Counted from the stretch's first letter, positions 5,945-56,756 are shown. The stretch: DNA of 64,000 nt from a bacterium (GCA_021786355.1 JAJYNK010000009.1:517-64516); one strand, 5' to 3'. Made by a program: numbers and translations. Notes: generated by a model not told the origin, from the letters alone.

Positions 5945-5965
5945 CTGTATTTATAGGGTATTTAC

Positions 5966-6068
5966 CCCCACACCAAACGAGGATTAAATCAAATCCACAG
6001 CTTTGATAAAGCGAATTTATTCCGTCAACTGACGGAATAAATTAAAATATCCTCGTTTGGTGTGGGGG
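5966..6068. repeat. Hairpin repeat, family C copy 1. A 20-bp perfect inverted repeat (CCCCCACACCAAACGAGGAT / ATCCTCGTTTGGTGTGGGGG) encloses a nested 11-bp hairpin TTATTCCGTCA-AC-TGACGGAATAA.
   Basis: Read directly from the sequence. A second copy with a different but complementary inner stem lies at 39529-39666. Confidence 0.8.
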
Positions 6069-6134
6069 TTTACAAGATTTAAAAAATATGCTATTATTTA
6101 GTTAGATCGTAAAAAAATCTTTGAGGGGGTAAAA

Positions 6135-8009: not shown

Positions 8010-8290
8010 TTTTTAATACGCGATCAAGTATATTCTCGCTACCGTTCAGCCGCCCGGCGAGCGGCTTCACTGGCGCCACTCCTTCGCTCGTCCAGCCGCA
8101 AGTTCCGTAGAGCAGCTCTCGGAGGTATCGCAAGCTTGGTGTCGCCTTAGGCGACTTGCGATGCCGAGAGCGCAGGCGGGATTTGGCCGCTGGAGCCAAA
8201 GAACCGCCGGTGCTCATAGGAATTTGCGGCTGGACACCTTGCCCGCTCAGTCGCGGAGCCGCGCTACGAATATATTTGCTCGCGAATACA
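8010..8290. other. GC-rich, ORF-poor intergenic block of about 280 bp, flanked by imperfect inverted ends (AAGTATATTCTCGC ... GCGAGCAAATATATTCG)
   Basis: Conspicuous GC and nested hairpins (for example GTCGCCTTAGGCGAC) between the Mur ligase gene and ruvA. Only a 70-aa ORF overlaps it, judged spurious. Confidence 0.5.
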
Positions 8291-13223: not shown

Positions 13224-14186
13224 TTGTTCAGCAAATTAACTAATCAACTAATTAACCAGACTGCAACACGCATGGCTGATATAAATAAACTACTTAAAAA
13301 CTATCTCGACTATCTTGAGATAGAGAAAGGCAGAACCAAAGAAACGCGGGAGAATTACGAACATTACTTAAAAACGTTTTTTGAATTTGCCAGAATAAAA
13401 TCCGAAAGCGATATCAACGCTGACAACGTAAGAGATTTTAGAATCTATCTGGCGCGGCTCCATAATCTTCGAGATGGTGAAAATTTTAAGCGCACAACTC
13501 AAAGCTATTATATAATAGCGCTTAGAAACTTTTTGAAATTTTTGGCGAAAAACGACTATAAAGTTTTGGCTTCGGAAAAAATCGAGCTTCCCAGGATCCC
13601 AAAACAACAAATAGACATAATGGAATACTCGGATTTGGAGCGGCTTATGGCGGCGCCCAAAACAACCGATTTAAAAGGGCTGCGCGACAAGGCGATTTTG
13701 GAAGTTTTGTTTTCAACCGGACTTCGAGTGTCGGAATTGTGCGCTTTAAACCGATATTTTGACTTGAATAGGGGAGAAATTTCCGTACGCGGTAAAGGCG
13801 GGAAAATACGAGTGGTATTTTTAGCCGACTCCGCTAAAAAAGCCATTAAAAATTATCTGGATAAACGAACCGACGCCGAAGAAGCTTTATTTGTGAGCTT
13901 AACCAAAGCAAAAAATCCAAAAGTGCTTGGAAGAATTATTCCTCGCACAGTCCAACGCTTGATAGATTTTTATGGAAGAAAGGCAGGCATCTCACAAAAA
14001 ATCCATCCGCATTTAATCCGACACAGCTTTGCCACTGATTTATTAATAGGCGGAGCGGATTTAAGGTCAGTACAGGAACTTTTAGGCCACAGCAATATCT
14101 CCACAACCCAGATTTATACGCACTTGACCAATAAAGAGCTTAAAGAAATACATAAAACTTTTCACGGGAGACGCAGGAGCGAGTAG
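13224..14186 (+). CDS. Tyrosine site-specific recombinase, XerC/XerD-like (true start possibly MADINK at 13272)
   Basis: Catalytic signatures LIRHSFATDLL (HxxR) and LGHSNISTTQIYTHL (Tyr) plus an N-terminal SAM-like core-binding domain. Confidence 0.85.
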   Translation: MFSKLTNQLINQTATRMADINKLLKNYLDYLEIEKGRTKETRENYEHYLKTFFEFARIKSESDINADNVRDFRIYLARLHNLRDGENFKRTTQSYYIIALRNFLKFLAKNDYKVLASEKIELPRIPKQQIDIMEYSDLERLMAAPKTTDLKGLRDKAILEVLFSTGLRVSELCALNRYFDLNRGEISVRGKGGKIRVVFLADSAKKAIKNYLDKRTDAEEALFVSLTKAKNPKVLGRIIPRTVQRLIDFYGRKAGISQKIHPHLIRHSFATDLLIGGADLRSVQELLGHSNISTTQIYTHLTNKELKEIHKTFHGRRRSE

Positions 14187-14830: not shown

Positions 14831-14909
14831 CCCGGTAGTGAAGCTTCGGCCGAAATAAATTTTATCCTCCGACGTAACGTCGGAGGAAAGCCGAAGTTCT
14901 ACTACGGGG
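14831..14909. repeat. Hairpin repeat, family H copy 2 (CCCGGTAGTGAAGCTTCGGCC ... GCCGAAGTTCTACTACGGGG) with inner hairpin CCTCCGACG-TAA-CGTCGGAGG
   Basis: Seen in the sequence, immediately upstream of the higher-GC operon starting at 14953. Confidence 0.8.
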
Positions 14910-17029: not shown

Positions 17030-17413
17030 TTATAAGTTTCCGGCAATTCCTCTTATTGCTGCGACTAGCCCTTTAGCAAGCAAGCCAACCGCGACAGATA
17101 CAAGAGCCCAGAGTATATGATTTCTTGCCGCTTTGGTTTTTGCTTCATCTCCGCCGGAAGTTAAAAACTGAAACGCTCCCCAAACAATAAAAACAACCGC
17201 CAAGGCAATTAATAATCCCAATAAATAATTAGCCACTGTATCTAGCGTATCGTACACATTAGAAAGGCCGGTTATGGGGATATTTCCGGGTTGTCCTTGG
17301 CCTGGCGGAGTAAATATCGCGGCAAACGAAAATACCGGCAACGCGAGCGATAAAATCGCTCCTGAATAAATAATACTTTGTAAAACTTTTTTCATTTTTT
17401 TGTATCGTATCAA
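17030..17413 (-). CDS. VirB2/TrbC-like pilin-family protein A (signal peptide, then two hydrophobic helices joined by TSGGD)
   Basis: YLLGLLIALAVVFIVWGAFQFLTSGGDEAKTKAARNHILWALVSVAVGLLAKGLV is the characteristic two-helix hairpin. Confidence 0.5.
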   Translation of the reverse strand: MIRYKKMKKVLQSIIYSGAILSLALPVFSFAAIFTPPGQGQPGNIPITGLSNVYDTLDTVANYLLGLLIALAVVFIVWGAFQFLTSGGDEAKTKAARNHILWALVSVAVGLLAKGLVAAIRGIAGNL

Positions 17414-17442: not shown

Positions 17443-17853
17443 TTATAACGTTTGTATTATTCCGTACAACGCGCCGATGATTCCTCGCGCGAGTAAAATT
17501 ACTAATAATCCGATTGCGGCGTATAAAACTGTTTTTTGGCCTTCCTGGAATTTTTTAGGGTCGCCTGACGCGGTCATCATTTTCCAAGCGCCGTAGATAA
17601 CTATTATCACAGCCACAGAAACCGAAACGCCGATAAAATAATCGATTATTTTGGAAAGGACGCTATCAAGAGTCGAGCCGGATCCAAAATAATTAAAAAG
17701 CTGGCCGCTCCCGCCGCTAGCAGAAGGACTTGCTCCAGTTGGCTGACCGCCGCTTGTTGTCGGCTGACCTCCGCTTGTTTCGGCTAATTGATAAAAAGCA
17801 AACAAAGGCGCGACTTTAAGCCAATTCAAAATTTTTTTAATGTTTTTTCTCAT
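17443..17853 (-). CDS. VirB2/TrbC-like pilin-family protein B, with a low-complexity TSGGQPTTSGGQPT repeat
   Basis: DYFIGVSVSVAVIIVIYGAWKMMTASGDPKKFQEGQKTVLYAAIGLLVILLARGII has the same architecture as A and C. An imperfect 21-bp tandem repeat in the DNA encodes SGGQPT twice. Confidence 0.5.
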   Translation of the reverse strand: MRKNIKKILNWLKVAPLFAFYQLAETSGGQPTTSGGQPTGASPSASGGSGQLFNYFGSGSTLDSVLSKIIDYFIGVSVSVAVIIVIYGAWKMMTASGDPKKFQEGQKTVLYAAIGLLVILLARGIIGALYGIIQTL

Positions 17854-17994
17854 CCCAGTACTACAACTTCGATTATTTTTGTGTTAATTCTCGAGGTTGT
17901 GATTTATTGATTATTCTTATTTTTATTACCCAATATCAACTTAATTCAGGTTCTCAAAAATTTATAGAGAATGTATCGAAGTTGTAGTACTGGG
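17854..17994. repeat. 20-bp perfect inverted repeat CCCAGTACTACAACTTCGAT (17854-17873) / ATCGAAGTTGTAGTACTGGG (17975-17994) flanking a 101-bp AT-rich segment. The left arm abuts the ATG of pilin gene B.
   Basis: Arms verified base by base. The start codon of B (reverse complement of CAT 17851-17853) is immediately adjacent. Confidence 0.85.
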
Positions 17995-18026
17995 CATTTT
18001 TAAAATTATAAAAAATTTTTAACTGC

Positions 18027-18377
18027 TTAGCAAGGAAATTTATTCCATGGACCTAAACTGCCGCCGACAAGAACTTTCAAAACCAAATCAACTATGAACC
18101 CGGCTAAAAGAAGAATGGCTATGCCGATTAAGATAGTTCTTATTTTTCCAACCGCTTCTTTGTACTTTCCGGGATCTCCGGCAGAAGTCATTATTTTAAA
18201 CCCCGCCCAAACCAAAGCGCCGAGCGCCAAAACAAACGCGAAAACAATGACAAAATTATAAATATTTTGAGCTAACTGGAATAAATCGCAAATAGTACAT
18301 TCGAGCTTAGCCGTTCCCGGACCGCACTGAACTAAAGGGGTCAAAGCCGCATTGGCAATATTAACTAAATTAATCAT
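18027..18377 (-). CDS. VirB2/TrbC-like pilin-family protein C
   Basis: FVIVFAFVLALGALVWAGFKIMTSAGDPGKYKEAVGKIRTILIGIAILLLAGFIV. Confidence 0.5.
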   Translation of the reverse strand: MINLVNIANAALTPLVQCGPGTAKLECTICDLFQLAQNIYNFVIVFAFVLALGALVWAGFKIMTSAGDPGKYKEAVGKIRTILIGIAILLLAGFIVDLVLKVLVGGSLGPWNKFPC

Positions 18378-18388
18378 GGTTTTTCGTT

Positions 18389-18442
18389 GTCATCCCGAGC
18401 GTGGCGAGGGATCTCGAGATTCTTCGCTTCGCTCTGAATGAC
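18389..18442. repeat. Repeated 5'-UTR element D copy 1 (GTCATCCCGAG...AGGGATCTCGAGATTCTTCGCTTCGCTCTGAATGAC)
   Basis: A near-identical copy at 33201-33262 overlaps the holB start codon. Short terminal inverted ends GTCAT/ATGAC. Confidence 0.75.
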
Positions 18443-26970: not shown

Positions 26971-26990
26971 TCAAAACACTGGGGAGTTGA

Positions 26991-27298
26991 CCCCGCACCT
27001 TTTAAGCTCACAATCGTTTTTTGAAAATGTATTACATGTATATACTAAAAAGCAAGGTTAATGGTGAATTGTATATAGGAAGCACCGGTAACATCAAAAA
27101 ACGATTAGAAGAGCATAATTTGGGAAAGGAAAAAGCTACCAAAAGTTATAAACCTTGGAAAATCGTTTATCTAGAAGGCTATTTTTCTGAAAATGACGCC
27201 AGAACCAGAGAACACAATCTTAAACACTTCGGCAAGGTTTATTCCCAGCTGAAACGAAGAATTAAAAATAGCCTTCAAGAGTCTTAAAAGGTGCGGGG
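26991..27298. repeat. 16-bp perfect inverted repeat CCCCGCACCTTTTAAG (26991-27006) / CTTAAAAGGTGCGGGG (27283-27298) bracketing the GIY-YIG ORF
   Basis: Verified base by base. The right arm begins at the ORF's stop codon. Confidence 0.85.
27021..27287 (+). CDS. GIY-YIG nuclease domain protein (88 aa, homing-endonuclease-like)
   Basis: YMYILKSKVNGELYIGSTGNIKKRLEEHN matches GIY-YIG. Confidence 0.8.
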   Translation: MKMYYMYILKSKVNGELYIGSTGNIKKRLEEHNLGKEKATKSYKPWKIVYLEGYFSENDARTREHNLKHFGKVYSQLKRRIKNSLQES

Positions 27299-27346
27299 TT
27301 GATGATATAATAAAAGCGACAAAACGGGCGATCAGGAGAAAATAAT

Positions 27347-39495: not shown

Positions 39496-39528
39496 CCCCG
39501 CTGTTTTTCCAGGCGGGGCGTTTTTTTA
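39496..39528 (+). terminator. Rho-independent terminator CCCCGC-(11-nt loop)-GCGGGG followed by CG and T7
   Basis: Directly after the stop at 39493-39495. Confidence 0.7.
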
Positions 39529-39666
39529 CCCCCACACCAAAGAAAGATCTAAATTTTTTCGAAGTCAAAAATATTTAAGAAATAACAGTAATTATTTAAC
39601 AAAACAATATAAAAAACCACTAACAAAGAAATTTAATCGCTTCGCAATCTTTCTTTGGTGAGGGGG
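39529..39666. repeat. Hairpin repeat, family C copy 2 (CCCCCACACCAAAGAAAGAT ... ATCTTTCTTTGGTGAGGGGG, one A-A mismatch) enclosing about 98 nt of AT-rich DNA
   Basis: Same CCCCCACACCAAA terminus as the copy at 5966. The inner stem differs but stays complementary. Confidence 0.8.
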
Positions 39667-39786
39667 TTTATTAACACCTTACGAACAAAATCTCTTGCTT
39701 TAAAACGCCGATTACTGATAATATGCCTTTAGAACACTGCTAATTTAAAATTCTGAGCTTATATAAAATTTGAGGAGGTGTTTGGG

Positions 39787-40932: not shown

Positions 40933-41009
40933 GCCCTGTAGTGAATTTTGGCTTGATAAAATCTGATTTTATTCGCTTTTGGCGAAGACAGCCAAAATCT
41001 ACTACTGGG
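40933..41009. repeat. Hairpin repeat, family H copy 3 (CCCTGTAGTGAATTTTGGCT ... GCCAAAATCTACTACTGGG)
   Basis: Seen in the sequence. A half-copy (ATATGCCCGGTTAGTGAAAAAACGATTGATT) follows at 41024-41059. Confidence 0.8.
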
Positions 41010-41023
41010 TTGAAAAATCAAAA

Positions 41024-41059
41024 ATATGCCCGGTTAGTGAAAAAACGATTGATTTCTAC
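41024..41059. repeat. Left member of a 36-bp inverted-repeat pair (AAAATATGCCCGGTTAGTGAAA[A/C]AACGAT[T/C]GATT). The partner lies at 43690-43725 in reverse orientation.
   Basis: About 33 of 36 bases identical after reverse-complementing. The pair flanks a 2.7-kb segment. Confidence 0.7.
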
Positions 41060-41180
41060 AGCTTTTTTCCAACCAAACCGTCGCTGGGCATAAATTAACT
41101 AAAAACATAATTTTAGGTAAAACAGAGGCGAAACAAATTAAAATCTTATTTTAATTTAGATCGTTTTTCTACTACCGGGT

Positions 41181-43563: not shown

Positions 43564-43771
43564 GCCCGGTAGTAGAACAACGATTTATAAATCAAATATT
43601 TCTAAATATTTGATTTATTCCGTTTATTTAAATTAGATTTGTTTATTTATAAATATCTTTATATTTTACCCTTCAATGATTTAATAACCAGAAAAGGAAT
43701 CGATCGTTGTTTCACTAACCGGGCATATTTTGTTAAATCTACTTGATATTGAAATTATTGCAATATTTTAC

Positions 43772-45971
<2,200 letters not shown>

Positions 45972-53592: not shown

Positions 53593-53743
53593 CAATCCCG
53601 CACCTTTCGCGGATTGCGAAGCTATAAAATTCCAGAAACTAAAAAGATAAAAAGTCACCCACCTTTCTTAAAGAAAAACGGTTTGGATTTAGTTCGGCGG
53701 CTTCGAAAAGAATTTATATCCGCGAAAGGTGCGGGATCAATCG
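53593..53743. repeat. 19-bp perfect inverted repeat TCCCGCACCTTTCGCGGAT / ATCCGCGAAAGGTGCGGGA about 100 nt apart, spanning the ruvC 3' end
   Basis: The right arm encodes IDPAPFAD in the RuvC C-terminal tail. It shares the CCCGCACCTTT core with the GIY-YIG-flanking repeat. Confidence 0.75.
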
Positions 53744-56612: not shown

Positions 56613-56756
56613 GCCCCGTTAGTGAAGCTTCGGCCGATTAAATTTTTATTGATAAATAGTTAACCAAAAATAACCAAACTTTAAAAAAATGAAAGAGTCG
56701 TTGATAATAAAATTTAATTTGCCTTCGGCAAAAAAGCCGAAGCTCTACTACGGGGT
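56613..56756. repeat. Hairpin repeat, family H copy 5 (GCCCCGTTAGTGAAGCTTCGGCC ... GGCCGAAGCTCTACTACGGGGT), forming the whole dnaE 5' leader. Its 3' end abuts the dnaE ATG.
   Basis: Seen in the sequence. Inner hairpin TGCC-TTCG-GCA. About 100 nt of AT-rich spacer. Confidence 0.8.

What the first reader, a model, noticed from the sequence alone, without database searches (positions are those of the whole stretch)
17851..17997. 20-bp perfect inverted repeats flanking a 101-bp AT-rich segment at the start codon of pilin gene B: candidate invertible switch or long-range translational hairpin
CCCAGTACTACAACTTCGAT (17854-17873) and its exact reverse complement (17975-17994) bracket an AT-rich 101-bp spacer. 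The left arm is directly adjacent to the ATG of gene B, with no Shine-Dalgarno between them. As DNA this resembles invertible promoter cassettes, with the Xer-like tyrosine recombinase at 13224 as a possible invertase. As RNA the 20-bp stem would sequester the start region. Either reading would give on/off control of a variable surface protein.
Basis: partly seen in the sequence, partly recalled or inferred. Interest (0 to 1): 0.65.

Follow-up and report, generated by a model that had tools for sequence, protein, structure and literature searches.

The report
Mobile hairpin element in a start codon
The perfect inverted repeat in front of pilin gene B is a 141-bp copy of a tiny mobile element, widespread in Patescibacteria, that inserts exactly at gene start codons; its full-length relatives encode only a ~95-residue GIY-YIG nuclease read from the host gene's own ATG, and I found no description of such an element.

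Summary
CCCAGTACTACAACTTCGAT (17854-17873) and its exact reverse complement (17975-17994) flank a 101-nt spacer of 24% GC. The arm abuts the ATG of a T4SS-pilin gene on the minus strand.

It is an insertion, not a native switch. An orthologous locus (L090) reads TATAATTTTAAAAATG followed directly by gene B. The window has the same sequence with the 141-nt element placed after the ATG and the ATG duplicated.

The same arms bound 53 non-redundant copies in Patescibacteria genomes and metagenomes.
- 50 of 53 have flanking repeats matching in at least 3 of 4 bases, mostly TATG.
- 49 of 53 abut the first ATG of a long ORF.
- All are co-oriented with the host gene.

Copies of 292-322 bp encode one SLX1/UPF0213-type GIY-YIG nuclease. 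Its ORF starts at the duplicated host ATG and runs through the 5' arm (MPSTTTS). In most intact copies it stops at a TAG inside the 3' arm, 8 nt before the host ATG.

The window copy is a non-coding derivative. Seven assemblies show one orientation only, so the invertible-switch reading is not supported. The RNA-hairpin reading is plausible, but as a consequence of the insertion. Seven literature searches found no description of this element class.

The parts
17975..17994 (-). 5' terminal inverted repeat in the gene B sense orientation: CCCAGTACTACAACTTCGAT. In full-length relatives it encodes residues 2-7 (PSTTTS) of the nuclease.
17874..17974 (-). Internal 101-nt AT-rich segment of the non-autonomous copy. 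It is 71-80% identical to copies at three other host genes (L003, L008/L056, L034). It has no significant similarity to the GIY-YIG gene.
17854..17873 (-). 3' terminal inverted repeat (ATCGAAGTTGTAGTACTGGG in sense), directly abutting the gene B ATG. It contains the TAG that ends the nuclease ORF in most intact full-length relatives (...SKL*).
17995..17997 (-). ATG#1: the copy of the host start codon left upstream of the element (target-site duplication). It lies 7 nt downstream of the -10 box.
17851..17853 (-). ATG#2: the duplicated start codon that now begins pilin gene B.
17962..17997 (-). Residual upstream ORF MPSTTTSIHSL* (11 codons plus stop), read from ATG#1 through the 5' arm. Its stop lies 108 nt before ATG#2.
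18005..18033 (-). Sigma-70-like promoter TTGCTA-17-TATAAT, overlapping the gene A stop codon and conserved in the orthologous loci L090, L091 and L095. In the empty site the -10 box is 7 nt from the gene B ATG, which is a leaderless-type arrangement (inferred).
17443..17853 (-). Host gene B, a T4SS pilin (PF18895), 136 aa. dN/dS is 0.14 against the ortholog at the empty site.
18027..18377 (-). Upstream paralog, pilin gene A (PF18895).
17030..17413 (-). Downstream paralog, pilin gene C (PF18895).

Best explanation
Window 17854-17994 is a non-autonomous, MITE-like copy of a family of very small TIR-bounded mobile elements of Patescibacteria. It inserted at the start codon of pilin gene B and duplicated the ATG.

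**Shown**
- Autonomous-size members (292-322 bp) have the layout (T)ATG-[20-bp TIR / about 95-aa GIY-YIG ORF / 20-bp TIR]-(T)ATG-host gene.
- Their only ORF begins at the upstream copy of the host ATG and reads through the 5' TIR (MPSTTTS). In 7 of the 8 intact copies it ends at a TAG inside the 3' TIR, 7-8 nt before the host ATG. L009 ends at a TAA 24 nt before it.

**Inferred**
- The element uses the host gene's own transcription and translation-initiation signals for its nuclease. Ribosomes pass to the host gene by termination-reinitiation.
- The SLX1/UPF0213-type, structure-specific-like nuclease is the mobility enzyme. It may cut at the base of the hairpin or cruciform formed by the TIRs.

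**The window copy**
- The coding part is gone and only an 11-codon uORF remains.
- The conserved promoter TTGCTA-17-TATAAT now drives an RNA that starts at or near ATG#1. Its first ~144 nt fold into a -45 kcal/mol hairpin, and the gene B AUG sits immediately 3' of the stem.
- I infer that self-folding keeps the insert from pairing with host sequence and brings the original initiation region next to the new AUG. Gene B would then stay expressible, probably at altered efficiency.
- It is not an invertible switch.
For: **Insertion and target duplication**
- Empty versus filled site: L090 reads ...TATAATTTTAAAAATGGTAAAAAAC. The window reads ...TATAATTTTAAAAATG[141 nt]ATGAGAAAAAAC. Synteny is the same (gyrA, solute-binding protein, pilins A, B, C).
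- The syntenic loci L091 and L095 also lack the element.
- A second pair shows a 4-bp duplication: L065 TATG[134 nt]TATG against L013 TATG.

**Family**
- The arm was found in 13 genome loci and 68 metagenome loci, giving 53 non-redundant paired copies.
- 35 of 53 are flanked by TATG/TATG. Most others have CATG or AATG. 3 of 53 have a 3-bp ATG duplication like the window.
- 49 of 53 abut the first ATG of an ORF of at least 90 aa or one running off the contig. Only 22.6% of NATG sites in the same loci do so (binomial P = 2e-27).
- Host genes include rpsP-like, FtsW/RodA-like and gyrA.
- Orientation is always the same relative to the host gene: 179 matches against 0.

**Nuclease**
- Full-length copies carry PF01541 GIY-YIG (E = 1.9e-15).
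- 144 homologs were found, mostly starting MPSTTTS, MPGATTS or MPGRTIS and ending ...SKL.
- 16 columns are invariant across 40 aligned proteins, among them Y15, Y26, G28, R36, H40 and E60.
- The closest solved relatives are UPF0213 (1zg2) and SLX1.
- A diverged TIR variant has the same layout, between PrgI-like and TraC-like genes.

**Window copy**
- Arms are essentially identical across the subfamily, while the inner part is 71-80% identical.
- Seven assemblies show a single orientation.
- Gene B dN/dS is 0.14, similar to its neighbours.
Against: - No experiment or read-level data are available. Assemblies report only the consensus orientation.
- No precedent is known to me for a GIY-YIG protein acting as a transposase. 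A ~95-aa protein has no obvious DNA-binding domain.
- Nothing in the DNA around the targets beyond (T)ATG explains why start codons are hit.
- Termination-reinitiation cannot be essential for host expression. In 25 of 36 short copies, including the window copy, the uORF stops elsewhere than at the TAG of the 3' arm, usually tens of nt before the host ATG. Lengths that keep the frame are not enriched (16:8:12, p = 0.11).
- Arm mismatches show no RNA-specific bias (13 G.U against 15 A.C).
- The inner part shows no covariation support. RNA-level function is therefore inferred only.
- The inner segment of the window copy has no significant similarity to the nuclease gene.
- No family-1 nuclease gene lies within the 64-kb window.
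Confidence: 0.85

Rival explanations
1. Invertible DNA switch. A tyrosine recombinase, for example the Xer-like protein at 13224-14186, inverts the 101-bp segment between the 20-bp repeats and switches pilin B on or off.
For: Perfect 20-bp inverted repeats lie next to the start of a surface-protein gene. A promoter-like TTGATA-18-AATAAT lies inside the segment at 17939..17910. A tyrosine recombinase lies within 4 kb.
Against: - Seven assemblies from different samples or runs are identical, and none has the spacer inverted.
- None of 179 inter-copy matches is in the opposite orientation.
- The same element sits at the starts of dozens of unrelated genes, and an orthologous empty site exists.
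- The internal promoter-like site is not conserved in the subfamily. Such sites are no more frequent than in shuffles (4 found against 5.8 expected).
- The recombinase has the ordinary XerC/D architecture and is not adjacent.
Confidence: 0.03
2. Exapted translational hairpin. The element is mobile in origin, but in this lineage the hairpin has been retained as a host-beneficial regulator. It could act as a temperature- or RNase III-dependent gate, or as a uORF-dependent gate, on pilin B translation.
For: - The hairpin is very stable and places the AUG at the foot of the stem.
- The insertion appears fixed in all 7 assemblies examined.
- Gene B remains under purifying selection.
- A ribosome translating the 11-codon uORF would have to melt the 5' arm (inference).
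Against: - The same architecture occurs at housekeeping genes, where on/off control is unlikely.
- There is no covariation or G.U bias pointing to RNA-level selection.
- No expression data are available.
Confidence: 0.2
3. The TIRs are recognised by a different, unlinked transposase. The small GIY-YIG gene is a passenger or a homing-type nuclease that only rides in the element.
For: No GIY-YIG transposase is known to me. The protein is minimal, at about 95 aa. Many copies, including the window copy, lack the gene and would need a trans-acting factor anyway.
Against: - The nuclease ORF is physically fused to both TIRs and is the only ORF that fits in about 300 bp.
- Diverged TIR variants come with their own diverged nucleases: the MPGATTSI variant (L096) and a different 17-bp TIR family at window 26990-27299, whose stop codon also lies in the 3' TIR.
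- 16 columns of the nuclease alignment are invariant.
Confidence: 0.15
4. Chance palindrome or assembly artefact.
For: None beyond the general risk of palindromic mis-assemblies in metagenomes.
Against: - No match was found in 100 shuffles.
- The sequence is identical in 7 independent assemblies.
- Dozens of related copies with the same flanks occur in other genomes.
Confidence: 0.01

Closest known systems
Bacterial MITEs that are co-transcribed and fold into hairpins (Correia/NEMIS of Neisseria, ERIC/IRU, RUP); from my own knowledge
   Same: They are small (about 100-160 bp) and non-coding, with terminal inverted repeats and a short target duplication. They are multi-copy, lie next to genes and form long RNA hairpins within mRNAs.
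   Different: Those families derive from, or are mobilised by, DDE-type IS transposases and insert at TA or AT-rich intergenic sites. This family shares its TIRs with about 300-bp elements encoding only a GIY-YIG nuclease. It sits exactly at start codons in a fixed orientation and duplicates the (T)ATG.
Free-standing GIY-YIG homing endonuclease genes (T4 Seg and Mob proteins) and I-TevI; from my own knowledge and PMC1564403
   Same: A selfish GIY-YIG nuclease gene is wedged between host genes and expressed with them.
   Different: Homing endonucleases have no TIRs and no target duplication. They spread by gene conversion into the cognate allele and carry DNA-binding modules. Here the nuclease is the minimal SLX1/UPF0213 type. 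It is bounded by perfect TIRs and found at many unrelated genes, with clean empty and filled sites.
REP/REPIN-RAYT systems and IS200/IS605 PATEs; from my own knowledge
   Same: A small nuclease gene is flanked by palindromic repeats, with numerous short non-autonomous hairpin-forming derivatives. Strand- or orientation-specific insertion next to a 4-5-nt target suggests a single-strand hairpin intermediate.
   Different: Those systems use HUH (Y1) transposases, make no target duplication and lie in extragenic space. Here the nuclease is GIY-YIG, the flanking repeat is 3-4 bp and the position is the start codon.
Invertible promoter switches (fimS, hin, Bacteroides invertons); from my own knowledge
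   Same: Short inverted repeats flank a segment of 100-300 bp upstream of a surface-structure gene.
   Different: No second orientation was observed. There is no dedicated adjacent recombinase, the promoter lies outside the repeats, and the segment is an insertion.
Split ribosome-binding sites bridged by a hairpin (phage T4 gene 38), shunting or bypassing (CaMV 35S leader, T4 gene 60); from my own knowledge
   Same: A stable stem-loop lies between the initiation signals or a short uORF and the start or landing codon. Identical triplets sit at the two feet of the stem.
   Different: There is no evidence here that ribosomes bridge or bypass the hairpin. This is offered only as a possible way host genes stay expressed.

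Membership tests
MITE (non-autonomous TIR transposable element) | Small, non-coding, bounded by terminal inverted repeats | tested here: met
   141 bp with 20-bp perfect TIRs. Only an 11-codon residual ORF remains.
MITE (non-autonomous TIR transposable element) | Target-site duplication and a demonstrable empty site | tested here: met
   ATG/ATG flanks in the window, with the empty site in L090. 4-bp TATG duplication in the L065/L013 pair. 35 of 53 copies are TATG/TATG.
MITE (non-autonomous TIR transposable element) | Multiple copies within genomes | tested here: inconclusive
   Other genomes are multi-copy: DeMMO1_11 has 5 and Wolfebacteria S40-20 has 3. Only one family-1 copy lies in this 64-kb window. 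The rest of the source genome could not be scanned.
MITE (non-autonomous TIR transposable element) | A longer coding element shares the same TIRs | tested here: met
   Copies of 292-322 bp with the same arms encode a GIY-YIG protein.
Invertible DNA switch (inverton) | Both orientations present in a population | tested here: not met
   7 of 7 assemblies show the same orientation. No opposite-orientation matches were found among the copies. Raw reads were not available.
Invertible DNA switch (inverton) | Dedicated site-specific recombinase adjacent to the repeats | tested here: not met
   The nearest recombinase (13224-14186) is an XerC/D-type protein 3.7 kb away, next to a tRNA-Leu gene.
Invertible DNA switch (inverton) | A promoter or coding segment inside the invertible region whose orientation sets expression | tested here: not met
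   The conserved promoter lies outside the repeats. The internal promoter-like hexamers are not conserved in the subfamily.
GIY-YIG nuclease superfamily, SLX1/UPF0213 branch (applies to full-length relatives, not the window copy) | GIY-YIG domain with conserved core residues | tested here: met
   PF01541, E = 1.9e-15. Y15, Y26, G28, R36, H40 and E60 are among 16 invariant columns in 40 aligned sequences. Best PDB matches are 1zg2 (UPF0213) and SLX1. The window copy itself has no such ORF.
Homing endonuclease gene (free-standing) | Spread into the cognate allele only, with no TIR and no target duplication | tested here: not met
   The element has TIRs and 3-4-bp duplications and occurs at more than 40 unrelated genes.
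Known Rfam RNA family | Score at or above a family's gathering threshold | tested here: not met
   Only tRNAs pass in the window. The hairpin gives 20-24 bits against plant miRNA-precursor models whose thresholds are 140-230 bits.
IS element with a DDE, HUH, serine or tyrosine transposase | Encodes such a transposase | tested here: not met
   The only ORF in the full-length copies is the ~95-aa GIY-YIG protein.

The most novel reading that the evidence does not exclude
These elements would be a previously undescribed class of prokaryotic mobile DNA, roughly 300-bp "start-codon hijackers". Their single gene, a minimal SLX1-like GIY-YIG nuclease, would be both the mobility enzyme and a translational parasite. 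It is read from the host gene's own start codon through the TIR and hands the ribosome back at a stop codon built into the other TIR. The perfect hairpin would make the insertion nearly silent for the host. The elements would recognise translation starts by a mechanism not explained by local DNA sequence. The window copy would be one of their non-autonomous derivatives. The window also holds several related hairpin elements at other gene starts, which suggests that such elements shape 5' ends of mRNAs across Patescibacteria.
Probability: 0.4. Interest if true: 0.85.

Novelty: new variant of a known kind. Interest (0 to 1): 0.72.

Why it matters
If this holds, three points follow.
- It adds a transposable-element type whose only protein is a ~95-residue GIY-YIG nuclease. 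That fold is known from homing, repair and retroelement endonucleases, but not as the sole protein of a TIR and target-duplication element.
- It is an extreme case of a parasite embedded in host gene expression. The nuclease ORF, the TIRs, the host start codon and the stop codon overlap, so the element needs no promoter or ribosome-binding site of its own.
- It poses a testable question: how genes, including essential ones, are translated when a 20-bp perfect stem separates them from their initiation signals.

Practically, these elements create spurious "MPSTTTS..." ORFs and mis-called starts in annotations of candidate-phyla genomes. They can also be mistaken for phase-variation switches, as happened here.

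Tried and rejected
- **RNA-specific selection on the stem.** Arm mismatches were classed on the sense strand: 13 G.U against 15 A.C, so no bias.
- **Conserved inner RNA structure.** RNAalifold on 6 subfamily members gave a positive (penalising) covariation term and only 3 compensatory pairs.
- **Selection for a uORF ending at the 3'-arm TAG in short copies.** Length classes mod 3 are 16:8:12 (p = 0.11). The open frames seen in in-frame copies are what in-frame deletions of an ORF would give anyway.
- **Homology of the window copy's inner segment to the nuclease gene.** blastn found only 8-9-mers, so I do not claim it is a deletion derivative of the gene.
- **Internal promoter 17939..17910.** It is not conserved among relatives, and such sites are at chance frequency.
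- **Rfam.** No family matches. The only hits are sub-threshold matches to long plant miRNA hairpins.
- **Unpaired ("solo") arm hits.** About 20 are coincidental 19-mers inside unrelated GC-rich coding sequences, for example ...QYYNFDKPNHW... in 7 contigs. Several of the rest are true copies cut by contig ends.
- **The two Liptonbacteria exceptions (L012).** I tested whether they lie in rRNA genes. No rRNA was found. They lie a few nt from, or inside, gene 5' ends.
- **L091-L094.** These lack the element, but their gene B N-terminus and leader differ, so they are not a clean empty site.
- **Literature.** Seven full-text searches found no description of a TIR-bounded GIY-YIG element at start codons. 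The 2006 GIY-YIG survey describes stand-alone prokaryotic SLX1-like proteins without assigning mobility. Absence from this library is not proof of novelty.

Full report
**1. The observation**

The 20-mer CCCAGTACTACAACTTCGAT occurs at 17854-17873. Its exact reverse complement occurs at 17975-17994. Nothing else in the window matches within three mismatches, and none of 100 shuffles produced a match. The 101-nt spacer has 23.8% GC, against 40.3% for the window. Weaker complementarity continues inward to 53-nt arms at 74%.

The genes here are on the minus strand. They are three tandem T4SS-pilin genes (PF18895): A at 18377..18027, B at 17853..17443 and C at 17413..17030. Read in the sense of the genes, the region is as follows:
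- the gene A stop codon, overlapped by a promoter-like TTGCTA-17-TATAAT (18033..18005);
- 7 nt;
- ATG (17997..17995);
- the 141-nt element (17994..17854);
- ATG of gene B (17853..17851).

The element is therefore flanked by a direct ATG repeat. The ATG upstream of the element opens an 11-codon ORF, MPSTTTSIHSL*, that runs through the first arm. The sense RNA folds to -45.6 kcal/mol (z = -8.6), and the gene B AUG is unpaired just 3' of the 20-bp stem.

**2. It is an insertion**

Gene B was traced to GCA_027423115.1 and to 22 contigs from several samples. Related pilin B proteins led to syntenic loci with the same order: gyrA, solute-binding protein, pilins A, B and C, then two further ORFs. In these loci the A-B spacer is only about 30-35 nt.

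L090 carries a gene B ortholog that is 82% identical. It reads CCTTGCTAAACGGCTAAAAATTTTTTATAATTTTAAAAATGGTAAAAAAC. This is the window's promoter and ATG followed directly by the gene. The window has the 141 nt inserted after that ATG, followed by a second ATG. L095 (Candidatus Wolfebacteria S40-20) and L091 also lack the element.

In the empty site the -10 box lies 7 nt from the ATG and no Shine-Dalgarno sequence is present. Gene B therefore looks like a leaderless gene. This is an inference. In a rough survey of the window, only 7 of 58 ORFs have GGAG or GAGG upstream, and 17 have a -10-like box 5-9 nt upstream.

**3. The family**

The arm was found in 13 loci of the species-representative genome collection and 68 metagenome loci.
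- About 20 of the unpaired hits are coincidental matches inside unrelated coding sequences.
- The rest gave 53 non-redundant paired copies, mostly in Patescibacteria genomes and groundwater metagenomes.
- Sizes fall into two classes: about 100-170 bp and 292-322 bp.
- The four bases on either side match in at least 3 of 4 positions in 50 of the 53 copies. TATG/TATG occurs 35 times. Most of the others are CATG or AATG.
- Three copies have a 3-bp ATG duplication, including the window and a full-length copy, L040.

Position is highly non-random. In 49 of 53 copies the downstream ATG opens an ORF of at least 90 codons or one that runs off the contig. Only 22.6% of NATG sites in the same loci do so (binomial P = 2e-27). 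In the window only 15 of 58 intergenic TATG sites are first start codons.

Host genes are unrelated to one another. They include rpsP-like, FtsW/RodA-like, prepilin-peptidase-like and gyrA genes.

A second empty/filled pair confirms a 4-bp duplication at an operon-internal start. L065 reads ...gtttaggTATG[134 nt]TATGccggaaaa. L013 reads ...gtttgagTATGccggaaaa. One contig carries two copies in tandem, separated by the repeated tetranucleotide (L055).

**4. The coding members**

The 292-322-bp copies carry a single ORF. It starts at the upstream ATG and reads through the arm as PSTTTS. It encodes a GIY-YIG domain (PF01541, E = 1.9e-15). In 7 of the 8 intact copies it ends ...SKL* at the TAG inside the 3' arm (TCG AAG TTG TAG), 7-8 nt before the host ATG. 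L009 ends at a TAA 24 nt before the host ATG. Two further copies, L023 and L049, have interrupted ORFs.

A protein search returned 144 relatives, mostly about 95-97 aa. Most begin MPSTTTS, MPGATTS, MPGRTIS or MPSNTTS, and many end SKL. Several have no internal start codon near the first beta-strand. Initiation at the host-derived ATG is therefore the simplest reading.

Across 40 aligned proteins, 16 columns are invariant, among them Y15, Y26, G28, R36, H40 and E60. The nearest solved structures are UPF0213 proteins (1zg2, 1ywl) and SLX1.

A scan of 1.8 billion 50%-identity cluster representatives gave 4,182 hits at E <= 1e-3 and 543 at E <= 1e-10 for this small-nuclease superfamily.

A diverged TIR variant in L096 (CCCGGTGCGACAACTTCGAT ... 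ATCGAAGTTGTAGCACCGGG) has the same TATG-[TIR-ORF-TIR]-TATG layout. It lies between a PrgI-like and a TraC-like gene.

**5. The window copy among its relatives**

Its inner sequence clusters with copies at three other host genes: L003/L058/L078, L008/L017/L056 and L034. Two of these lie in one Wolfebacteria genome whose own pilin B site is empty.

Across this subfamily the arms are essentially identical, while the inner part is 71-80% identical. A shared non-coding interior at four unrelated starts argues that the short form has itself moved.

All 179 significant inner-sequence matches among the 53 copies are co-oriented relative to the host gene. None is opposite.

**6.

The invertible-switch reading is not supported.
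- Seven assemblies (L083-L089) are 100% identical over 201 nt, and the spacer is never inverted.
- The family-wide orientation result is equally one-sided.
- The conserved promoter lies outside the repeats.
- The internal promoter-like site is not conserved.
- The Xer-like protein has ordinary XerC/D architecture and sits 3.7 kb away.

The RNA-hairpin reading is partly right. Any transcript from the conserved promoter must contain the hairpin. However, I found no RNA-specific signal.
- Arm mismatches are 13 G.U against 15 A.C.
- The inner part shows no covariation.
- No Rfam family matches.

Compensatory double changes do occur in the arms (L065, L010, L055, L096). These are equally expected for TIRs.

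**7. Most likely mechanism**

Shown:
- the insertion;
- the 3-4-bp duplication containing the ATG;
- exclusive placement at gene starts;
- fixed orientation;
- a nuclease ORF fused to both TIRs.

Inferred:
- (a) The nuclease is the mobility protein. It is the only ORF, and diverged TIR families carry their own diverged nucleases. One example is a separate 17-bp-TIR element at window 26990-27299 whose stop codon also lies in the 3' TIR.
- (b) Because it resembles structure-specific SLX1, it may cut at the foot of the hairpin or cruciform formed by the TIRs. A single-strand hairpin intermediate would also explain the fixed orientation next to a non-palindromic TATG.
- (c) Full-length copies are translated from the host's initiation signals and return ribosomes by termination-reinitiation.
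- (d) Reinitiation cannot be required for host expression. In 25 of 36 short copies the uORF stops elsewhere than at the arm TAG, usually tens of nt before the host ATG, and frame-preserving lengths are not enriched. The only feature common to all copies is the perfect stem with an ATG at each foot. I therefore propose that self-folding sequesters the insert and brings the original initiation region next to the new AUG.

Gene B shows dN/dS of 0.14 against the empty-site ortholog, similar to genes A (0.07) and C (0.10). This is consistent with continued function.

What makes start codons the target is unexplained. No motif beyond (T)ATG appears in 44 distinct sites. Survivorship alone does not account for the absence of copies at the more numerous non-start intergenic TATG sites.

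**8. Comparison and novelty**

The window feature meets most criteria of a MITE: size, TIRs, target duplication, an empty site and a coding relative with the same TIRs. Multi-copy status in its own genome could not be tested.

The family differs from known bacterial MITEs and IS elements in three ways:
- its protein is GIY-YIG rather than a DDE, HUH, serine or tyrosine transposase;
- its target is the start codon;
- the ORF, the TIRs and the host start and stop signals overlap.

It differs from homing endonuclease genes in having TIRs and duplications and in occurring at many unrelated loci.

Seven full-text searches and a reading of the 2006 GIY-YIG survey found no description of such elements. 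This does not prove that none exists.

**9. Verdict**

The switch interpretation is rejected, and the hairpin interpretation is kept only as a consequence of the insertion. The feature is a mobile-element insertion. The family it belongs to is unusual and apparently undescribed.

Noticed in passing
window 41029-41179 (+), 43565-43723 (-), 56614-56755 (+): Three more hairpin elements sit exactly at start codons of ORFs 41181.., 43563.. and 56757... Their arm family is related but different (CCCNGTTAGTGAA... / ...TCTACTACNGGG), and they are flanked by TATG...(T/C)ATG. The ATG upstream of each element opens only MPG** or MPR** (TAG TGA inside the 5' arm). The arms pair with a conserved bulge and a G.U pair on the sense strand only. 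This arm family was not found in the other loci fetched.
   Followed up: partly
window 40934-41009, 43802-43871, 14831-14909 (+): Short 70-79-nt hairpins of the same arm family (CCCNGTAGTGAA...TTCTACTACNGGG) do not abut an ATG. One starts 1 nt after a TATAAT box and ends 15 nt before ATG 43887. Another lies just upstream of the 41029 element.
   Followed up: partly
window 26990-27299; also 53595-53737: A 310-bp element with 17-bp perfect TIRs (ACCCCGCACCTTTTAAG) encodes an 86-aa GIY-YIG protein (27027-27287). That protein is 45% identical to the family-1 nuclease, and its stop codon lies in the 3' TIR. The element is intergenic, not at a start codon. A 143-bp pair with 20-bp perfect, similar arms (ATCCCGCACCTTTCGCGGAT) looks like its short derivative.
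   Followed up: partly
window 5964-6069 and 39517-39678: Two MITE-like pairs share arms of the form ACCCCCACACCAAA... One is 21 bp and perfect; the other is 32 nt at 81%. They span 106 and 162 bp.
   Followed up: no
window 8090-8235: A GC-rich inverted repeat (25-nt arms, 84% complementary, 96 nt apart) of unknown nature.
   Followed up: no
window 18389-18442: A REP-like imperfect palindrome lies just upstream of pilin gene A. On the minus strand it reads GTCATTCAGAGCGAAGCGAAGAATCTCGAGATCCCTCGCCACGCTCGGGATGAC.
   Followed up: no
L055:382-634: Two family-1 copies (125 and 124 nt) lie in tandem, separated only by the repeated tetranucleotide. This is consistent with a second insertion into the duplicated start codon.
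   Followed up: partly
L012:1498-1625 and L012:3214-3339 (Candidatus Liptonbacteria): These are exceptions to the start-codon rule. They are flanked by CAAG/CAAG and CAAA/CAAA. An ATG inside each element opens an ORF that reads out through the 3' arm (...HRSCSTG...) into the downstream gene. No rRNA gene is present.
   Followed up: partly
L027, L031, L032, L051, L069, L075, L082: The 19-nt arm also occurs, unpaired, inside a conserved GC-rich coding sequence (...QYYNFDKPNHWM...) in unrelated contigs. This looks like a coincidental match and warns against counting arm hits without checking for a partner.
   Followed up: partly
window, all ORFs of at least 100 aa: Few ORFs have a Shine-Dalgarno sequence (7 of 58 with GGAG or GAGG in -20..-4). 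Many have a -10-like TANNNT box 5-9 nt upstream of the start (17 of 58). This suggests frequent leaderless mRNAs in this organism.
   Followed up: partly
protein P0134: A 1,318-aa predicted protein matches the small GIY-YIG query in 14 separate stretches, suggesting an array of partial nuclease repeats.
   Followed up: no
L010 and L011 (MAG labelled uncultured Gammaproteobacteria): Genuine family-1 copies with TATG flanks and host ORFs occur in a MAG labelled Gammaproteobacteria. This could be a mis-binned contig or the element occurring outside Patescibacteria.
   Followed up: no
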